A stretch of 64,000 nt of DNA from Candidatus Moraniibacteriota bacterium (GTDB lineage Bacteria; Patescibacteriota; Minisyncoccia; Moranbacterales; UBA2206), in the NCBI GenBank assembly GCA_038203255.1, contig JBBREE010000001.1, positions 31,882 through 95,881 on the forward strand. The letters run 5' to 3'. Under the pieces are notes generated by a model. It was not told the DNA's origin, did no database searches, and saw only the letters and a program-made list of their open reading frames with translations. Position numbers and translations under genes: made by a program. Position 1 is the stretch's first letter; every line of letters starts with the position of its first letter. Positions 9,000 to 36,965 of this stretch are shown in pieces.

Positions 9000-9071
9000 T
9001 CCGCGATAGCTCAATGGTAGAGCAATTGACTGTTAATCAATTGGTTCCAGGTTCGAGTCCTGGTCGCGGAG
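9000..9071 (+). tRNA. tRNA-Asn (GTT)
   Basis: Cloverleaf: acceptor TCCGCGA/TCGCGGA, D-stem GCTC/GAGC, anticodon stem ATTGA/TCAAT with loop CTGTTAA (anticodon GTT), T-arm CCAGG-TTCGAGT-CCTGG, discriminator G. CCA is not encoded. Confidence 0.85.
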
Positions 9072-9081
9072 CTAGTGCAAT

Positions 9082-12959: not shown

Positions 12960-13127
12960 ATGGAAAACAAAAAAGAAACAAGAAAATTAACCAAGACTGG
13001 GCGTGGGAGTATGTATGTGATTTTACCCAAAGAATTGATTGCTCACTTTGGCTGGCGCGAAAAACAAAAACTGACGGTGGAAAAAGTGAAGGGTGGGATT
13101 TTGATTAAGGATTGGAGGAAGAGATAA
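12960..13127 (+). CDS. AbrB/MazE/SpoVT-like small DNA-binding protein (55 aa), paralog copy 1
   Basis: MENKKETRKLTKTGRGSMYVILPKELIAHFGWREKQKLTVEKVKGGILIKDWRKR shows the swapped-hairpin pattern (TRKxTKxGGSxxVxLPKExxxxLG). A second copy lies at 19384-19551. Confidence 0.55.
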   Translation: MENKKETRKLTKTGRGSMYVILPKELIAHFGWREKQKLTVEKVKGGILIKDWRKR

Positions 13128-13193
13128 AAAAAGCCTCCAGTCCGCATTGCGAACCTTTGGCTTCTTGTGAAAAGAAAAAATGTTTTGAAATTA

Positions 13194-15002: not shown

Positions 15003-15038
15003 CATCAAGGTTCGAACTTCTTCCATCGCGCGGAGCCA
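15003..15038. repeat. 36-nt repeat catcaaggttcgaacttcttccatcgcgcggagcca, copy 1
   Basis: Identical 36-mer at 17656-17691. It ends in GGAGCCA, resembling a tRNA 3' end. Confidence 0.7.
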
Positions 15039-15138: not shown

Positions 15139-16203
15139 TTAATTCTTTTTGATCCTTTGGCGTTTCAGCGCTCCTTCAATAATTTTATCCAAAAAAACCG
15201 GAAAGCTCATCCCGTACGCAGCAGCGGCTTGGGGCGCAAGGCTAGTAGCGGTCATCCCAGGAATAGTGTTAATTTCAAGAAAATATAATTTATCATCATC
15301 TGCACTCCAAATGAAATCAGCTCGGGCCAGATCAATACACCCGACAGCCTTGAAAATTTTGACTGCATAACGTTGAATTTTTCTTTTAACGTCATCCGAA
15401 ATTTCGGCTGGACAGACTTCTTCCGATCCGCCTGTTTCATATTTCGCCCGATAATCAAACCACCCAGAAACTTTAGGGATAATTTCAATAACCGGAAGCG
15501 CCTTCGGAGCTTTGTCTCCTATTACTGCCACTGTAAGTTCTCTGCCTTTCACAAATTGTTCCAAAAGAACTTCGTTGCCATATTTTAAAGCCTCCTCTAT
15601 TCCAGAAATTAATTTTTCCTTAGAGGTAACCAAGCTTATCCCAACTGAAGATCCAAGCTCTGTTGGTTTTATAACGATTGGAAAATTTAATTTAGCAATT
15701 ATACTCACCGCGCTATATTTTTTATCCCGAGAAATCACTTCATCTTTAGCAATTTTTAATCCCGATGCCTTAGCAATAATTTTAGTCTTGCGTTTATGCA
15801 TAGCCAAAGCGCTAGCCAACGTTCCTGAAAAAACATACGGCAATCCGAGCATTTCCAGTGCGCCTTGCAACTTTCCATCCTCCCCAAAAGTTCCGTGGAT
15901 AATTGGCAAAACCAAATCAATTGGTGGAAATTTTTCCGGAAATTTATTCCTGTCTTCAAAAGAACTCCCGTTCCCCACTCCGCCCTCTCGACTAGCTCCT
16001 TCCAAATTTTCATCTAAATATTTTTGTCCCTCCTCACCCACTAGCCAATGTCCGGACTTAGTAATGGCAATAGGGATAATCTCATACTTATTCTTATCAA
16101 GCGCACTCATGACTTGATTAGCTGATCTCAAAGAAACTTCGTGTTCACCGGATTGTCCGCCAAAGATAACCGCTAATTGTTTTTTTGCGATAGTTTTTTT
16201 CAT
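15139..16203 (-). CDS. ddl: D-alanine--D-alanine ligase
   Basis: N-terminus KKQLAVIFGGQSGEHEVSLRSA plus the ATP-grasp body (EQFVKGRELTVAVIG...). Canonical Ddl. Confidence 0.9.
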   Translation of the reverse strand: MKKTIAKKQLAVIFGGQSGEHEVSLRSANQVMSALDKNKYEIIPIAITKSGHWLVGEEGQKYLDENLEGASREGGVGNGSSFEDRNKFPEKFPPIDLVLPIIHGTFGEDGKLQGALEMLGLPYVFSGTLASALAMHKRKTKIIAKASGLKIAKDEVISRDKKYSAVSIIAKLNFPIVIKPTELGSSVGISLVTSKEKLISGIEEALKYGNEVLLEQFVKGRELTVAVIGDKAPKALPVIEIIPKVSGWFDYRAKYETGGSEEVCPAEISDDVKRKIQRYAVKIFKAVGCIDLARADFIWSADDDKLYFLEINTIPGMTATSLAPQAAAAYGMSFPVFLDKIIEGALKRQRIKKN

Positions 16204-16342
16204 AAAATTAAAGTTAATATTTATACAAATGGTAGCTTGAATTGTTAATTATTGCAACAATATAACAGATTTTACTAAAAAAATAAAGCGGCTATCGAAA
16301 AACGACAACCGCCTGCTTCTGCCTTTGATGGAAAATTTTCCA

Positions 16343-17486: not shown

Positions 17487-17655
17487 GGCTACTCCTCCTA
17501 TAATAATATTGAGTTATGGGTCTTAGCTATGCTTTTGTCAAAGGACTTATTTAACTGTTTTCTCTATCAATTCTGTTCATATCCTGAGCATATTAGTCTA
17601 TCATCTTTTTGCAAGAAGTCAAAATTTATAATCCGCACTCTACTTGCGGTTACAG

Positions 17656-17711
17656 CATCAAGGTTCGAACTTCTTCCATCGCGCGGAGCCACAAAAAACT
17701 CAAAAAAGATT
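17656..17711. repeat. 36-nt repeat copy 2 (17656-17691), followed by a 20-nt right arm caaaaaactcaaaaaagatt that also occurs near 12574-12593
   Basis: The left arm is identical to 15003-15038. The right arm ggagccac[a/g]aaaaa[c/t]tcaaaaaaga[t/c]t is shared with 12566-12595. Confidence 0.7.
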
Positions 17712-17812
17712 GGAGATTAGTTGTTTTTGTATCATTTTCTAAAAGCATACTTGACTTTTTGTATCATAAATGATACAATTAAATCATAATTTAGCTATAT
17801 AATGATACAATT

Positions 17813-18895
17813 ATGCTAACTTACTCTAATTTAAACGCCAGACAACAATCTATCATAGACTTCGCAAAAGAAAAGCCGTCATTTCAAACGAAGGATGTTT
17901 TTTTGGCTGTCAAAGGAAAATTCGATGTCTCCCGCCTAACGGTTGTTCGCGATCTTTCATTTTTGGAAAAAAATGATGTCTTGAAAAAGCAAGGAGCCGG
18001 AAGAGCCGTGACTTATGCAATAACAAAAAAATATCTATCTCTCGAAAAAATTGACGTAGAAAAATATTTCTCAATTCCTTCTTCAAAAAGAAAGGCCGAC
18101 CCGCTATTCAACAATGATGTTTTTTCCATCTTAAACGAAAATCTTTTTTCAGAAGAAGAAATGAAAAAACTAAATTTAGCCAACGAAAAATATCTAAAAG
18201 CAAAAAATAAATTAGAAAAAGAAAGCCCCACGATTCTCAGAAAAGAATGGCAACGCTTAGTGATAGAACTATCCTGGAAATCATCTGAAATCGAAGGAAA
18301 CACCTACTCTCTTTTGGAAACCGAAGCGCTTCTTCGTGAGATGCGTTTTGCAAAAGGGAAAGATAGAGCAGAGGCGCAAATGATACTCAATCACAAAAAT
18401 TCCCTTGATTTTATCTTGTCCGACAAAAATTATTTTAAAAATATCAACCTTGATAAAATCAAAAAAATTCATGAGCTACTGACGGAAAATATAGACATCA
18501 AAAAAGATTTCCGAGATCATCCGGTCGGGATTACCGGAACAATCTATCGGCCTCTTCCAAGAAAAAAAGACATTACTTCGGCTATGGAAAAATTGAACGA
18601 CACTTTCTCACAAATTTCAAATCCTTTTGTGAAAGCCTTTGTTTCTTTGATTATGATTGCCTACATACAACCGTTCGAGGACGGAAACAAACGCACTTCG
18701 CGAATCATTGCCAACGCCATTTTGCACTCCCATGATAAATCGATTTTGTCCTATCGTGATGTCGATTCTATTGAATACAAAAAGGCTATGATATTGTTTT
18801 ATGAGAAAAATAACATTTCCTATGTAAAAGAAATATTCATTGCTCAAGTTGAATTTGCAACAGATAATTATTTTTCACAAAGTCAAAGTGGATGA
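17813..18895 (+). CDS. Fic-family protein with N-terminal winged-helix/HTH and a degenerate Fic motif
   Basis: The Fic core motif reads IQPFEDGNKRTSR; the canonical form is HPFx(D/E)GNGRxxR. An S-S-E-I-E-G-N segment matches the (S/T)xxxE(G/N) inhibitory-helix motif, and an N-terminal HTH is present. Confidence 0.7.
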   Translation: MLTYSNLNARQQSIIDFAKEKPSFQTKDVFLAVKGKFDVSRLTVVRDLSFLEKNDVLKKQGAGRAVTYAITKKYLSLEKIDVEKYFSIPSSKRKADPLFNNDVFSILNENLFSEEEMKKLNLANEKYLKAKNKLEKESPTILRKEWQRLVIELSWKSSEIEGNTYSLLETEALLREMRFAKGKDRAEAQMILNHKNSLDFILSDKNYFKNINLDKIKKIHELLTENIDIKKDFRDHPVGITGTIYRPLPRKKDITSAMEKLNDTFSQISNPFVKAFVSLIMIAYIQPFEDGNKRTSRIIANAILHSHDKSILSYRDVDSIEYKKAMILFYEKNNISYVKEIFIAQVEFATDNYFSQSQSG

Positions 18896-19199
18896 GGCAG
18901 ATATTGCTAAACCGTTTTAGATAGTATTAAAAATGATTTCCAAAGCCTTTTTTTGCTTCTCATCATTGACATCCCCTTTTCAAAATGCTACGATACAAAA
19001 TCGAAAAACGTTTCGATTTTAAGAGAAAGAGCAATCAAGCACATGAACAATTTCATAAAATGTTAATTGAAACAGGCTGAAGTTTTAGCTGAAACCAAAG
19101 ACAGGAAGACTTTGAAGCTTTCATATGTCATGGTTCGTGCCCTTTCTCTCGTTGAGACATCGGGAATCGGAATAACTCCAGGCATCTAATTTTACACAC

Positions 19200-19244
19200 A
19201 GAGCCGCACTCACAGAAATATGTGAGTTGCGGTTCTTTTTTTAT
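19200..19244 (+). terminator. hairpin + T9 terminator in the Fic/AbrB-like intergenic region
   Basis: agccgcactcacagaaatatgtgagttgcggtt followed by cttttttttatt. Confidence 0.5.
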
Positions 19245-19383
19245 TATTAACTAACGACTTCCCCATTCGCCTCTTACCCCATCCTGATTGATAATAGAAC
19301 TGACCCCGTAAAGGCTTGCGCCAACGGGGTAAACGTTAGGGATAACTTTAGGCTAACGTTAGTAAGAAATAATTTTAAAACAT

Positions 19384-19551
19384 ATGCAAAAGCAAAAAGA
19401 AACTCGAAAACTTACTAGAAACGGCGGCGGAACGATGTATGTTTCTTTGCCGAAAGAATTTGTGAAAGATTTAGGATGGCGTGAACGGCAAAAATTAGTT
19501 GTTGAAAGAGTGAAGAGTGGGATTTTGATTAAGGATTGGAGGAAAAGATAA
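19384..19551 (+). CDS. AbrB/MazE/SpoVT-like small DNA-binding protein (55 aa), paralog copy 2
   Basis: MQKQKETRKLTRNGGGTMYVSLPKEFVKDLGWRERQKLVVERVKSGILIKDWRKR. About 65% identical to the copy at 12960 and shares the identical C-terminus ILIKDWRKR. Confidence 0.55.
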   Translation: MQKQKETRKLTRNGGGTMYVSLPKEFVKDLGWRERQKLVVERVKSGILIKDWRKR

Positions 19552-19666
19552 ATTTCACAACCTATTTTTCCATATTAGTAAAATGTTCGGTCGAGGACGG
19601 TCCTCGATCTTTCCTCAATCTTTCAAGTAGAACTAAAAAATGGCCTTTTTCTATACACAAGGCTCT

Positions 19667-19846
19667 TTAACAAATAGTGTGTTGAATTAATATAAAGAGT
19701 GGTACGAAAGCGAGCATAACTTTAGCTATATAGTTATCAATATTTCTGAATCCAAATGATATTCTTTTAATCATTTTAATCTTGGTGTGTACTCCTTCGG
19801 TAAAAGCATTGGTAGAATAGTTGTCGAAATAATTTAGAATATTTTC
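19667..19846 (-). mobile_element. ISL3-family transposase C-terminal remnant (about 59 aa, no N-terminus)
   Basis: Minus-strand frame ENILNYFDNYSTNAFTEGVHTKIKMIKRISFGFRNIDNYIAKVMLAFVPLFILIQHTIC* matches the conserved ISL3 C-terminus (TNAxxEGxNNKIKxIKRxxYGFRNFxNF...). It has no start codon and no upstream transposase body. Confidence 0.6.
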
Positions 19847-19849
19847 TTT

Positions 19850-19943
19850 CCATCACCTGATTGGATGATCTTAAGGAAACTTCATGCTCACCAGATTGTC
19901 CGCCAAAGATGACAGCCAGTTGTTTTTTATTATTATTTTTCAT
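19850..19943 (-). pseudogene. duplicated 5' fragment of ddl fused out of frame to the IS remnant
   Basis: atgaaaaataataataaaaaacaactggctgtcatctttggcggacaatctggtgagcatgaagtttcc encodes MKNNNKKQLAVIFGGQSGEHEVS, nearly identical to the N-terminus of ddl at 16203. It runs into the transposase fragment in a +1 frame. Confidence 0.65.
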
Positions 19944-19992
19944 AAATATTTTTTAGCCTTATTTATAACTACCTTAAGGATATCAACTTGTC

Positions 19993-20030
19993 GCCTTTTT
20001 GCAAGAAGTTAGAAGTTATATCCCGAATTC
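19993..20030. repeat. second repeat family ctttttgcaagaagt[c/t]a[a/g]aa[t/g]ttata (copies at 17604-17640 and 19993-20030)
   Basis: About 28 of 38 nt are shared; each copy sits beside one of the other repeat or fragment elements. Confidence 0.4.
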
Positions 20031-20124
20031 TATTAAGGCAATAAATCATTCCCGTACCCGTAGTAAGAAAGAAAAACCCATCGCTCAATTGAGCGATGGG
20101 TTTTTTGAGAATTTTTTATATTTT

Positions 20125-35939: not shown

Positions 35940-36965
35940 TTAAGAAGTTCTCGTCTTGGCTGATGGAGTAGGCGCGGAAACTTTTTTCGAAGCAGTAGGA
36001 ATAGGAGCCACTGTCACAGCCGAGGAATCAGCCTTTACACTACTATCAACATTTTGGGAAGAAACACTTCCACTTGAAGTGGCCGTAGAAGAGGTTGCTT
36101 CAATCTCAGGGGATACAGTTCCTGTTATAATTGGCTTGATGGCTGATTTGTAAATAAAATAGAAAGGTAAAAGAAAAACAGCCATTGCAAAACTAAGGGC
36201 ATAAAAAGTATTGCGAATTTTGGGCCAGATTCCTTCATCCTCAATCATAGAAAAACCCTCAGTTTCGATTTGAAAATCTTGCACCCCAATCTTTTTGAGA
36301 TTTTCCTTCATCGCCTCCATAAATTTTTGCGGTCCGCAAAGAAAAAAAGTTTTTCCATGAGTATGCCCGATAAAGTTTTTTATAATCTCAGGACTCAAGC
36401 GTTTATTGATAAAACCCGTTGCCTTATATGGAAACTTTTCATCGGTCACACTGAGGAGTGTCCGCAAATTTTTATTTTTTTTCTCCAATTCTAAAATCTC
36501 CTCCAGAAACAACGCACTCTCGAATGTACGATTACTATAAAGTAGCGTCATTTTATTAGGCAATTGATGTAAAGTCGCATAGCGTAAGGCACTTATAAAA
36601 GGTGTGATGCCCACTCCCCCAGCCAAAAAAACCAAGTCGTGATGTTTTTCTTTTTTGAAAGTGAAATTACCATATGGTCCATCCACAAAAATCTCGTCCC
36701 CCTCTTTCATTTTTGAGAGACCCCTAGTAAAAGGGCCAGTCACCCTGATACCTAATTGAATAGAACCATTCTCCAAGGGGGAGCTGGCAATGGAAAAGGT
36801 GTGCTTTTGTTCGATTTCTCCTTTAGCATTTTTATAATAAATCATGACATATTGTCCGCTTTGAAAATCAAAAACCGGGATTCCTCTCAAATCTCCCAGC
36901 TCTAAAACAATTGTATCATCTCCCTTTTTGTTTATTTTTTTAATATAATACCTATATTCTTTCAT
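35940..36965 (-). CDS. FNR-like FAD/NAD(P)-binding oxidoreductase with C-terminal membrane anchor
   Basis: HTFSIASSP (RxYS-type FAD site), LAGGVGITPF NAD(P) site, a CGP motif, and a C-terminal TM plus Ser/Thr-rich tail. Confidence 0.65.
   Translation of the reverse strand: MKEYRYYIKKINKKGDDTIVLELGDLRGIPVFDFQSGQYVMIYYKNAKGEIEQKHTFSIASSPLENGSIQLGIRVTGPFTRGLSKMKEGDEIFVDGPYGNFTFKKEKHHDLVFLAGGVGITPFISALRYATLHQLPNKMTLLYSNRTFESALFLEEILELEKKNKNLRTLLSVTDEKFPYKATGFINKRLSPEIIKNFIGHTHGKTFFLCGPQKFMEAMKENLKKIGVQDFQIETEGFSMIEDEGIWPKIRNTFYALSFAMAVFLLPFYFIYKSAIKPIITGTVSPEIEATSSTATSSGSVSSQNVDSSVKADSSAVTVAPIPTASKKVSAPTPSAKTRTS

What the first reader, a model, noticed from the sequence alone, without database searches (positions are those of the whole stretch)
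17813..18895. Fic protein with catalytic His and motif Gly replaced (QPFEDGNKRTSR)
The canonical Fic motif is HPFx(D/E)GNGRxxR, in which the His is the catalytic base for AMPylation and related transfers. This gene has Gln in place of His and Lys in place of the second Gly, which is Doc-like. It keeps the N-terminal HTH and an (S/T)xxxE(G/N)-type inhibitory helix (SSEIEGN). That suggests either a non-canonical transferase or a DNA-binding and regulatory role with no AMPylation activity. It is embedded in the rearranged tRNA-adjacent tract.
Basis: seen in the sequence. Interest (0 to 1): 0.5.

Follow-up and report, generated by a model that had tools for sequence, protein, structure and literature searches.

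The report
Self-repressing Fic protein lacking catalytic histidine
This gene encodes a DNA-binding protein fused to a Fic enzyme-like domain whose catalytic histidine is always glutamine; it belongs to a large, widespread, uncharacterised family that appears to shut off its own promoter, and its chemistry, if it has any, is unknown.

Summary
ORF 17813-18895 (+) encodes a 360-aa protein with an N-terminal winged HTH, a class-II inhibitory helix (SSEIEGN) and a Fic domain whose motif is QPFEDGNKRTSR.

The Gln and Lys are not errors. Every full-length relative whose motif could be read has them: 120 + 80 + 116 sequences, down to about 31% identity. Both Gln codons and both Lys codons are used.

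The family occurs in Patescibacteria, Acidobacteriota, Bacteroidota and on proteobacterial plasmids. A His-to-Gln, NKR-type clade ("D2") was already noted in 2015, with no function assigned.

New here: the gene stands alone, with no conserved neighbour, behind a strong promoter. That promoter is overlaid by a symmetric array of four half-sites (TGTATCAT/ATGATACA). The layout is kept across the family, while the half-site sequence changes together with the recognition-helix residues. This supports autorepression through the protein's own wHTH.

Whether the Fic(Q) domain catalyses anything cannot be decided by computation.

Verdict: a new member of a known but uncharacterised clade; moderate interest.

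The parts
17813..18895 (+). Gene for a 360-aa wHTH-Fic(Q) protein (stop codon included)
   Evidence: ORF listed; Pfam Fic hit. The start codon and N-terminus (M-x-x-Y-x-x-L-N-x-R-Q) are shared with homologues.
17834..18028 (+). N-terminal winged helix-turn-helix domain, residues 8-72 (recognition helix residues 41-53 = 17933-17971)
   Evidence: Secondary structure of the AF2 model. Weak Pfam HTH_DeoR and Penicillinase_R hits. The family profile weakly matches the C-terminal wHTH of CbFic2, 8cil residues 300-370. T43 and R46 are invariant, while residues 41, 42 and 45 vary with the operator.
18281..18301 (+). Inhibitory-helix motif S157-S-E-I-E161-G-N, of the (S/T)xxxE(G/N) type (class II, in cis)
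   Evidence: Aligned with FICD TVAIE234GN. S157, E161, G162 and N163 are invariant in 95 family members.
18443..18724 (+). Fic core as matched by Pfam PF02661 (residues 211-304), including the flap region residues 234-247 (18512-18553)
   Evidence: R234, G242 and P247 are invariant.
18668..18703 (+). Fic motif Q286-P-F-E-D-G-N-K293-R-T-S-R297. The Gln codon is CAA at 18668-18670; the Lys codon is AAA at 18689-18691.
   Evidence: Sequence read. Q286, F288, D290, G291, N292, K293, R294 and R297 are invariant. Synonymous codon use at Q and K.
17751..17779 (+). Sigma-70-type promoter TTGACT-17 nt-TACAAT with TG extended -10
   Evidence: Best promoter-like site in 17500-19700, matching 10 of 12 positions. 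Conserved upstream of homologues.
17759..17778 (.). Central operator palindrome TTGTATCAT-AA-ATGATACAA, overlapping the promoter spacer and the -10 box
   Evidence: Unique in the 64-kb window even with 3 mismatches allowed; 0.01 matches expected by chance. 24 of 30 exact matches in 185,579 genomes lie just upstream of a family member.
17728..17735 (.). Distal half-site TGTATCAT, 32 bp upstream of the left inner half-site
   Evidence: Present at the same position in many homologues.
17802..17809 (.). Proximal half-site ATGATACA, 32 bp downstream of the right inner half-site and 4 nt before the ATG
   Evidence: A third half-site just before the start codon is nearly universal in the family.

Best explanation
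The gene is a stand-alone, self-repressing module.

The N-terminal winged HTH, probably acting as a dimer or a dimer of dimers, binds a symmetric array of four half-sites in the order <- (32 bp) <- (10 bp) -> (32 bp) ->. This array covers the spacer and -10 box of the gene's own promoter and its short 5' leader. Expression is thereby held low. This step is supported by comparative evidence.

The C-terminal part is a class-II Fic domain. It keeps the whole nucleotide/phosphate-binding apparatus: Asp for the metal, the Asn-Lys-Arg anion hole, the terminal Arg, the flap and the cis inhibitory Glu. It lacks the general-base His (Gln286) and carries the Doc-type Lys293.

My inference is that it cannot perform canonical His-dependent AMPylation. 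I think it acts as a nucleotide- or target-binding payload/sensor domain whose state is coupled to operator binding. Topologically it is a single chain made of an antitoxin-like part (DNA-binding domain plus inhibitory helix) fused to a toxin-like core. It is carried in accessory or mobile DNA.

Shown by computation: domain architecture, lineage-wide Q/K, operator conservation and co-variation, and the absence of a conserved partner gene. Inferred: actual DNA binding, repression, loss of AMPylation, and ligand sensing.
For: Architecture and fold.

Q and K are invariant under purifying selection.
- 120/120 best database relatives.
- 80/80 protein-selected metagenome loci.
- 116 of the 118 cluster representatives in which a motif was found.
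- Both Gln codons and both Lys codons are used.

The rest of the active site and the inhibitory helix are invariant, while the wHTH and the linker are the most variable parts.

Promoter and operator.
- Best promoter at 17751-17779.
- Four half-sites in a symmetric array, 5 matches in the window against 1.3 expected, four of them here.
- The palindrome is unique in the window.
- It is conserved almost base for base upstream of relatives of 48-75% identity that were found by protein alone.
- The exact 20-mer occurs in 30 places in 596 Gb, and 24 of these are directly upstream of a family gene.

Operator and protein change together.
- In the protein-selected loci the layout is kept but the half-site core differs by subclade. 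TGTATCA goes with S-R-[LI]-T-[VI]-[VI]-R-D; CCTATCA with T-L-N-R-D; GAGCTCA with S-Y-A-T-L-K-R; GACGCAAT with Y-S-R-E-T-I-T-R-D.
- Mutual information with the operator class at residues 41, 42 and 45 exceeds that of all entropy-matched control positions.
- Wing residue 64 and residues 41, 42 and 45 are among the top ten of 355 positions.

Distant members from other phyla, and plasmid-borne members, keep the N-terminal wHTH and repeated half-sites upstream.

No neighbour is shared by more than 4 of about 100 loci. Contexts include transposases, integrases, AbiEii, ParDE, HipA and TraG.

Precedents: CccR is a Fic protein that represses its own promoter through a DNA-binding domain (PMC9755527). 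DNA binding by the HTH of CbFic2 switches its activity (PMC10628234).
Against: - No experiment exists for any member, and no structure of a Q-type member has been solved.
- The co-variation statistic does not fully remove shared ancestry. Several unrelated positions score similarly after normalisation, and each operator class may represent only one evolutionary event.
- Strict invariance of Asp290, Asn292, Lys293, Arg294, Arg297 and Glu161 is also what an active enzyme would show. 'No catalysis' is therefore not demonstrated.
- A repressor that controls only itself needs a payload activity, and that activity remains unidentified.
- I could not inspect the model's coordinates, so active-site geometry was not checked.
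Confidence: 0.5

Rival explanations
1. Active non-canonical enzyme. The Fic(Q) domain catalyses a His-independent reaction. Candidates are Doc-like phosphoryl transfer with inverted ATP (because of Lys293), transfer to an acceptor that needs no deprotonation, or NTP hydrolysis with Glu161/Gln286 positioning water. The wHTH would only keep expression low, as in an autoregulated toxin or effector.
For: Every phosphate/metal-binding residue, the flap and the inhibitory Glu are invariant across more than 200 clusters at 50% identity. The specific Q+K pair is fixed rather than drifting. Khater & Mohanty argued that the Q clade may not be catalytically dead (PMC4454073). Fido-fold proteins without the motif can have other chemistry: AvrB is a rhamnosyltransferase (PMC10866546). 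Tight autorepression and a mobile context fit a toxic payload.
Against: In all characterised Fic and Doc enzymes the His is essential, according to the cited literature (PMC4454073). No activity has been reported for any Q member in the papers searched. No conserved antitoxin or target gene was found.
Confidence: 0.3
2. Single-gene anti-phage or abortive-infection defence of the SoFic type, with the Fic domain as the effector released on infection.
For: The PADLOC SoFic model hits at E 1.3e-21, and candidate system PDC-S04 at 2e-16. SoFic is a toxic Fic protein with a regulatory C-terminal domain (PMC12249575). The gene sits in variable, mobile neighbourhoods, sometimes with two paralogues per contig or MAG.
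Against: The hits cover only the generic Fic core (model positions 25-215 of 361). SoFic works by AMPylation, which needs the His that is absent here. The NCBIfam SoFic equivalog scores 14 against a cut-off of 550. There is no consistent association with defence islands.
Confidence: 0.12
3. Ordinary one-component transcription factor. The Fic(Q) domain is purely a ligand sensor, and the main targets are other genes elsewhere in the genome.
For: The wHTH plus ligand-binding-domain architecture fits. In one locus the same promoter/operator precedes a membrane-protein gene instead (L036). In Magasanikbacteria the gene is followed after 10 bp by three PEP-utilizer-domain genes.
Against: The palindrome is unique in the 64-kb window. 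In 185,579 genomes, exact copies lie almost only at the family's own genes. No neighbour is conserved.
Confidence: 0.06
4. Sequencing error or decaying pseudogene. A CAT/CAC His codon was misread as CAA, or the gene is inactivated.
For: CAA is one substitution away from CAT or CAC.
Against: Q and K are present in every full-length relative examined, with both synonymous codons in use. The reading frame is intact, the model is high-confidence and the promoter is conserved.
Confidence: 0.01

Closest known systems
Clade 'D2' of Khater & Mohanty 2015 (Sci Rep 5:10804, PMC4454073): Fic/Doc proteins with the motif Qx[F|Y]x[D|E][G|V]NKR
   Same: The His-to-Gln and Gly-to-Lys replacements are the same, and the motif fits exactly. 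Distant relatives found here, on plasmids of Aromatoleum and Cereibacter and in Acidobacteriota, read QPFEDVNKR, which matches the [G|V] position. Function is unknown in both.
   Different: D2 was described as 45 mostly 'single-domain' Doc-like bacterial proteins. Here the clade is far larger: 211 clusters at 50% identity with E <= 1e-30. It has an N-terminal wHTH that Pfam mostly misses. By sequence it is closer to class-II Fic/FICD than to Doc. Identity of the two clades was not proven, because no accession list is held.
CccR of Yersinia pseudotuberculosis (PMC9755527; probably PDB 7xux, an identification made from memory and release date)
   Same: A Fic domain and a DNA-binding domain in one chain. 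The protein represses its own promoter through the DNA-binding domain.
   Different: CccR has the canonical His motif and AMPylates FtsZ. Its DNA-binding domain is C-terminal, and it is a secreted T6SS effector. Sequence similarity is only distant (E 1.5e-5 with the family profile).
SoFic / CbFic2-type class-II Fic proteins with a C-terminal wHTH (PDB 3eqx, 8cil; PMC10628234, PMC12249575)
   Same: Class-II inhibitory helix, Fic core and flap, plus a winged HTH. The family's wHTH weakly matches that of CbFic2. In CbFic2, DNA binding controls the Fic domain.
   Different: The domain order is swapped, with the wHTH at the N-terminus. His is replaced by Gln and Gly by Lys. The NCBIfam SoFic model scores 14.3 against a cut-off of 550.
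FICD/HYPE (PDB 4u0z, 6i7k)
   Same: It is the best sequence and structure neighbour among solved structures: phmmer E 4e-8, profile E 9e-15, Foldseek E 3e-9. It has the same TxxxEGN-type inhibitory helix and the terminal ...RTSR.
   Different: FICD has His363 and GNGR. It has TPR domains instead of a wHTH, and it is a eukaryotic ER enzyme acting on BiP.
Doc toxin of the Phd/Doc module
   Same: Lys in the position of the second Gly (HxFxD[A/G]NKR). Doc also belongs to an autoregulated module in which a DNA-binding element and an inhibitory helix neutralise a Fic-fold core.
   Different: Doc keeps the catalytic His, lacks the terminal Arg and the flap, and is inhibited in trans by a separate antitoxin. 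The TIGR01550 model scores 16.9 against a cut-off of 38.65. No Doc structure was hit at E <= 1.

Membership tests
Fic/Fido superfamily (Pfam PF02661) | Score above the Pfam gathering threshold | tested here: met
   57.7 bits against a cut-off of 24, E 2.2e-15, residues 211-304.
Fic/Fido superfamily (Pfam PF02661) | All-helical Fic fold | tested here: met
   AF2 model with pLDDT 92.9. Foldseek to FICD, BT_2513 and SoFic gives probability 1.0, E 3e-9 to 1e-6.
Canonical AMPylating Fic enzymes (HxFx[D/E]GNGRxxR) | Catalytic His at the first motif position | tested here: not met
   Gln286 (CAA, 18668-18670). It aligns with FICD His363.
Canonical AMPylating Fic enzymes (HxFx[D/E]GNGRxxR) | Second Gly of GNGR | tested here: not met
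   Lys293.
Canonical AMPylating Fic enzymes (HxFx[D/E]GNGRxxR) | Acidic residue, Asn, Arg and terminal Arg of the motif | tested here: met
   D290, N292, R294 and R297 are present and invariant.
Canonical AMPylating Fic enzymes (HxFx[D/E]GNGRxxR) | AMP transfer to a target hydroxyl | not testable with these tools
   This needs biochemistry.
Class II Fic proteins (cis inhibitory helix N-terminal to the core) | (S/T)xxxE(G/N) motif on a helix preceding the Fic core in the same chain | tested here: met
   S157-S-E-I-E161-G162 lies on helix 139-160/167-176 and aligns to FICD TVAIEGN. It is invariant in the family.
Doc toxins (Phd/Doc) | HxFx[D/N][A/G]NKR with the catalytic His and no terminal Arg | tested here: not met
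   The Lys is present, but His is Gln and the terminal Arg297 is present. The definition is taken from PMC4454073.
Doc toxins (Phd/Doc) | NCBIfam TIGR01550 score above its cut-off | tested here: not met
   16.9 against 38.65 bits.
Doc toxins (Phd/Doc) | Adjacent antitoxin gene | tested here: not met
   The promoter lies about 30 nt from the ATG with no upstream ORF. No neighbour is conserved across about 100 loci.
His-to-Gln 'D2' clade (Khater & Mohanty 2015) | Motif Qx[F|Y]x[D|E][G|V]NKR | tested here: met
   QPFEDGNKR here. Distant relatives read QPFEDVNKR.
His-to-Gln 'D2' clade (Khater & Mohanty 2015) | Falls in the same phylogenetic clade as the published 45 sequences | not tested
   No accession list is in the supplementary files held.
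SoFic / CccR / CbFic2-type Fic-wHTH proteins | Fic core followed by a C-terminal wHTH or DNA-binding domain | tested here: not met
   The wHTH is N-terminal, residues 8-72.
SoFic / CccR / CbFic2-type Fic-wHTH proteins | Match to the family models (NCBIfam NF046030; PADLOC SoFic) | tested here: inconclusive
   NF046030 scores 14.3 against a cut-off of 550. PADLOC SoFic gives E 1.3e-21 but covers only model positions 25-215 of 361.
SoFic / CccR / CbFic2-type Fic-wHTH proteins | Anti-phage or toxic phenotype | not testable with these tools
   This needs experiments.

The most novel reading that the evidence does not exclude
The wHTH-Fic(Q/K) clade may be a distinct catalytic or switching class of the Fido fold. 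In this reading Gln286, Lys293 and the inhibitory Glu161 carry out His-independent chemistry. Candidates are NTP hydrolysis with a Ras-like Gln-positioned water, or phosphoryl/nucleotidyl transfer to an anionic acceptor. The nucleotide state would gate binding to the protein's own operator. That would make it a single-chain, self-regulating toxin/antitoxin-like or defence switch spread across many phyla and plasmids.
Probability: 0.2. Interest if true: 0.7.

Novelty: new member of a known kind. Interest (0 to 1): 0.42.

Why it matters
Fic enzymes are defined by a catalytic histidine. Here a large family, conserved from Patescibacteria to proteobacterial plasmids, has replaced it with Gln and has kept that Gln, together with a Doc-type Lys, under strict selection. 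Nobody knows what such proteins do.

The comparative data turn this into concrete experiments. There is a defined operator to footprint. There are defined point mutants to make: Q286H, K293G and E161G. Cultured, genetically tractable hosts carry homologues, namely Aromatoleum aromaticum EbN1 and Cereibacter.

If the domain proves active, the chemistry of the Fido fold is extended. If it proves inactive, it is a clear example of a Fic pseudoenzyme recruited as the sensor or payload of an autorepressor. For genome annotation, 'Fic family protein / protein adenylyltransferase' is probably a misleading name for this clade.

Tried and rejected
- Sequencing error or pseudogene: rejected on lineage-wide conservation and synonymous codon use.
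- Doc membership: rejected.
- Partner gene (antitoxin, target or operon): none is conserved in about 100 loci. The MazE/AbrB-like ORF 490 bp downstream is not found next to homologues.
- tRNA integration site: ARAGORN and Rfam are negative, and the 36-nt repeat does not fold.
- Further operator copies in the window: none. The single extra 8-mer at 36912 is within chance expectation.
- Solved structure of a Q-type member: none.
- Literature on activity of His-to-Gln Fic proteins: only the 2015 in-silico note was found. Its supplements hold no accession list.
- Phage origin: only distant Fic hits of 34% identity or less in phage records.
- Exact look-up of the window's own protein on a public contig failed, so the source organism is inferred only from its nearest relatives, Moranbacteria/Parcubacteria.
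Full report
**1. Observation**

- Pfam Fic (PF02661) matches residues 211-304 at 57.7 bits against a cut-off of 24.
- The motif is Y-I-Q286-P-F-E-D-G-N-K293-R-T-S-R297.
- In HMMER alignments to FICD, the Gln sits on the catalytic His and the Lys on the second Gly of GNGR. SSEIEGN (157-163) sits on the FICD inhibitory motif TVAIEGN.
- The AlphaFold2 model built on 77 relatives has mean pLDDT 92.9. It shows three helices and a two-strand wing (residues 9-70) ahead of an all-helical Fic domain.
- Foldseek places the model next to FICD, BT_2513 and SoFic.

So the gene, the Q/K replacements, the N-terminal HTH and the inhibitory helix are all real.

There are two slips. The Gln codon is CAA at 18668-18670; positions 18680-18682 are Asp290. 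And there is no tRNA nearby. The nearest is at 9000-9072, Rfam is silent over 12-22 kb, and the 36-nt repeat with a GGTTCGAA box does not fold better than shuffles.

**2. Lineage-wide, not an error**

- All 120 best database relatives (47-76% identity, mostly Moranbacteria, Parcubacteria and Magasanikbacteria) read Q-x-F-x-D-G-N-K-R.
- An independent set of 80 metagenome loci, chosen only by protein similarity down to 42% identity, shows the same in 80 of 80.
- A full HMMER scan of 1.84 billion cluster representatives gives 2811 hits at E <= 1e-3, 1050 at E <= 1e-10 and 211 at E <= 1e-30. Of the best 150, 116 carry Q...K, 31 are fragments or sequences in which the motif could not be found, one has Y...G and one has R...K.
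- In 97 distinct coding stretches Gln is CAG 49 / CAA 48 and Lys is AAA 65 / AAG 32. The amino acids are selected, not the codons.
- Across 95 non-redundant members the inhibitory helix, the Fic motif and the C-terminal helices are the most conserved parts. The wHTH and the linker are the most variable.

**3. Distribution**

- More distant members of 420-540 aa read QPFEDVNKR and also carry an N-terminal wHTH that Pfam detects only weakly.
- They occur in Acidobacteriota, in a 5.4-Mb genome, and on plasmids of cultured bacteria: Aromatoleum aromaticum EbN1, Cereibacter, Sulfitobacter and Bacteroides finegoldii. On these plasmids they lie next to integrases, ParDE and HipA.
- All are annotated simply as 'Fic family protein'.

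**4. Surroundings and regulation**

The best sigma-70-type promoter in the region is TTGACT-17-TACAAT with a TG extension at 17751-17779. Over it lies the palindrome TTGTATCAT-AA-ATGATACAA (17759-17778). Two further half-sites lie exactly 32 bp outside each inner one, at 17728-17735 and 17802-17809. The last of these is 4 nt before the ATG. The 20-mer is unique in the window even with three mismatches allowed.

Upstream regions of relatives that were found by protein alone carry the same promoter and half-sites almost base for base. This holds at 75, 70, 60 and 48% protein identity.

The exact 20-mer occurs in 30 places in 185,579 species genomes.
- 24 lie 35-70 bp upstream of a family gene.
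- One is at a contig end.
- Two are in candidate-phyla-radiation (Patescibacteria-type) contigs with no family gene, one of them ahead of a membrane-protein gene.
- Three are in Firmicutes, two of them next to small XRE genes.

In the protein-selected set the layout persists: an inverted repeat over the promoter plus a third half-site before the ATG. The core sequence differs between subclades (TGTATCA, CGTATCA, TGTAACA, TGTTGCA, CCTATCA, GACGCAAT, GAGCTCA, CGTCTCA), and each class goes with its own recognition-helix sequence.

Mutual information between operator class and residues 41, 42 and 45 exceeds that of every entropy-matched control position in residues 100-349. Wing residue 64 and residues 41, 42 and 45 rank in the top ten of 355 positions. 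This statistic does not fully correct for shared ancestry, so I treat it as supportive rather than decisive.

Distant members in other phyla also have 3-4 repeated half-sites upstream: ATGCGACA, ATCGCGACAT and GCGCGCCACATAAAA.

No neighbouring gene is shared by more than 4 of about 100 loci.

**5. Mechanism**

The best-supported part is that the protein represses its own promoter through its wHTH, binding a four-half-site operator as a dimer or dimer of dimers. This is inferred from comparative data. It has precedents in CccR (Fic plus a DNA-binding domain, autorepression; PMC9755527) and in CbFic2 (HTH-mediated DNA binding switches the activity of the Fic domain; PMC10628234).

For the Fic(Q) domain I commit to this reading. 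It retains nucleotide and phosphate binding: Asp290, Asn292, Lys293, Arg294 and Arg297, with Glu161 salt-bridging as in class II Fic proteins. It cannot perform canonical His-dependent AMPylation. It serves as the payload/sensor of a stand-alone, tightly self-limited module carried in accessory DNA.

In layout, a DNA-binding domain and an inhibitory helix are followed by a Fic-fold core bearing a Doc-type Lys. That resembles an antitoxin fused to its toxin.

The main rival is that the domain is an active enzyme with non-canonical chemistry. The invariance of the whole active site fits this equally well, and AvrB shows that Fido folds lacking the motif can be transferases of another kind (PMC10866546). 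Computation cannot separate the two.

**6. Comparison with what is known**

Khater & Mohanty (2015) reported a clade 'D2' of 45 bacterial Fic/Doc proteins with the motif Qx[F|Y]x[D|E][G|V]NKR. They argued it might not be catalytically dead but assigned no function (PMC4454073). The motif, including Val in the distant members found here, fits. I could not verify clade identity.

By sequence the family is nearer to FICD and class II Fic proteins than to Doc. It fails the Doc and SoFic NCBIfam cut-offs. The PADLOC SoFic and PDC-S04 hits cover only the generic core.

No paper in the searched library reports an experiment on a Q-type Fic protein, and no structure has been solved.

**7. Verdict**

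This gene is a new member of a previously noticed but uncharacterised clade. What I did not find reported in the papers searched is the clade's size and breadth, its constant wHTH-Fic(Q) architecture, and the conserved, co-varying autoregulatory operator.

Interest is moderate. It is not a surprise to a Fic specialist that degenerate motifs exist. But an invariant Q/K pair in a self-repressing, widely spread module, with homologues in cultured hosts, is a tractable open question.

Noticed in passing
window 15003-15038 and 17656-17691: Exact 36-nt direct repeat CATCAAGGTTCGAACTTCTTCCATCGCGCGGAGCCA, resembling a tRNA 3' end (T-loop-like box, ...GCCA). It is not called by ARAGORN or Rfam and does not fold better than shuffles. 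It brackets ddl, a VanX/M15-like dipeptidase gene and a CxxCxxCC gene.
   Followed up: partly
window 19779-19943 (-) versus 16108-16206: A second, truncated copy of the 5' end of the D-Ala-D-Ala ligase gene: 83% DNA identity over 78 nt, with a sub-threshold Pfam Dala_Dala_lig_N match on the first ~33 residues (32.3 against a 34.6-bit cut-off). It runs into unrelated sequence. This is evidence of a local rearrangement next to the Fic gene.
   Followed up: partly
window 18966-19245 (+): Candidate small RNA just downstream of the Fic gene. It has a strong promoter-like site (TTGACA-17-TACGAT with TG), an 8-bp inverted repeat AATCGAAA/TTTCGATT right after it, a stable fold (z -3.85) and a terminator-like hairpin followed by a T-run at about 19200-19245. 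There is no Rfam match.
   Followed up: partly
window 19384-19551 (+) and about 13011-13128: An orphan 55-aa MazE/AbrB-type antitoxin-like ORF (Pfam PF04014, 25.7 bits) with a 76%-identical DNA paralogue 6.4 kb upstream. No adjacent toxin gene was seen, and it is not found next to Fic homologues elsewhere.
   Followed up: partly
window 17580-17642 versus 19970-20032: A 63-nt stretch repeated at 71% identity, containing a promoter-like TTGCAA...TATAAT. One copy precedes the 36-nt repeat. The other precedes a perfect 17-bp hairpin terminator at 20072-20105.
   Followed up: no
L004-L006 (Magasanikbacteria homologue P0113): Here the wHTH-Fic(Q) gene is followed after 10 bp by three consecutive PEP-utilizers-domain genes and preceded by a TraG/VirD4-like coupling protein gene. 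This is the only case seen of a possible operon.
   Followed up: no
L036 5744-5763: The same promoter/operator, including the third half-site, sits in front of a predicted membrane-protein gene instead of a Fic gene. It may be promoter capture or a second regulated target.
   Followed up: no
L029, L035, L037 (Firmicutes/Mycoplasmatota contigs): The identical 20-bp palindrome occurs in all three contigs. In L035 and L037 it lies next to small XRE-type HTH genes; in L029 no such gene was seen. These contigs belong to unrelated bacteria and have no Fic homologue, so the match is presumably convergent or due to chance.
   Followed up: no
P0011 / P0014, JGI contig of 16,351 bp: Two paralogues, 80% identical, lie 2.2 kb apart beside DDE transposase, Pif1 helicase and GIY-YIG genes. 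One of them (P0014) has the inhibitory motif changed from SSEIEGN to SSEIEDN.
   Followed up: partly
P0253 and P0257: Two rare exceptions at the Gln position among the cluster representatives: YIYPFADGNGRVGR (Tyr, with GNGR) and YIRAFTDGNKRTAR (Arg). Each is a single sequence and neither was checked for errors.
   Followed up: no
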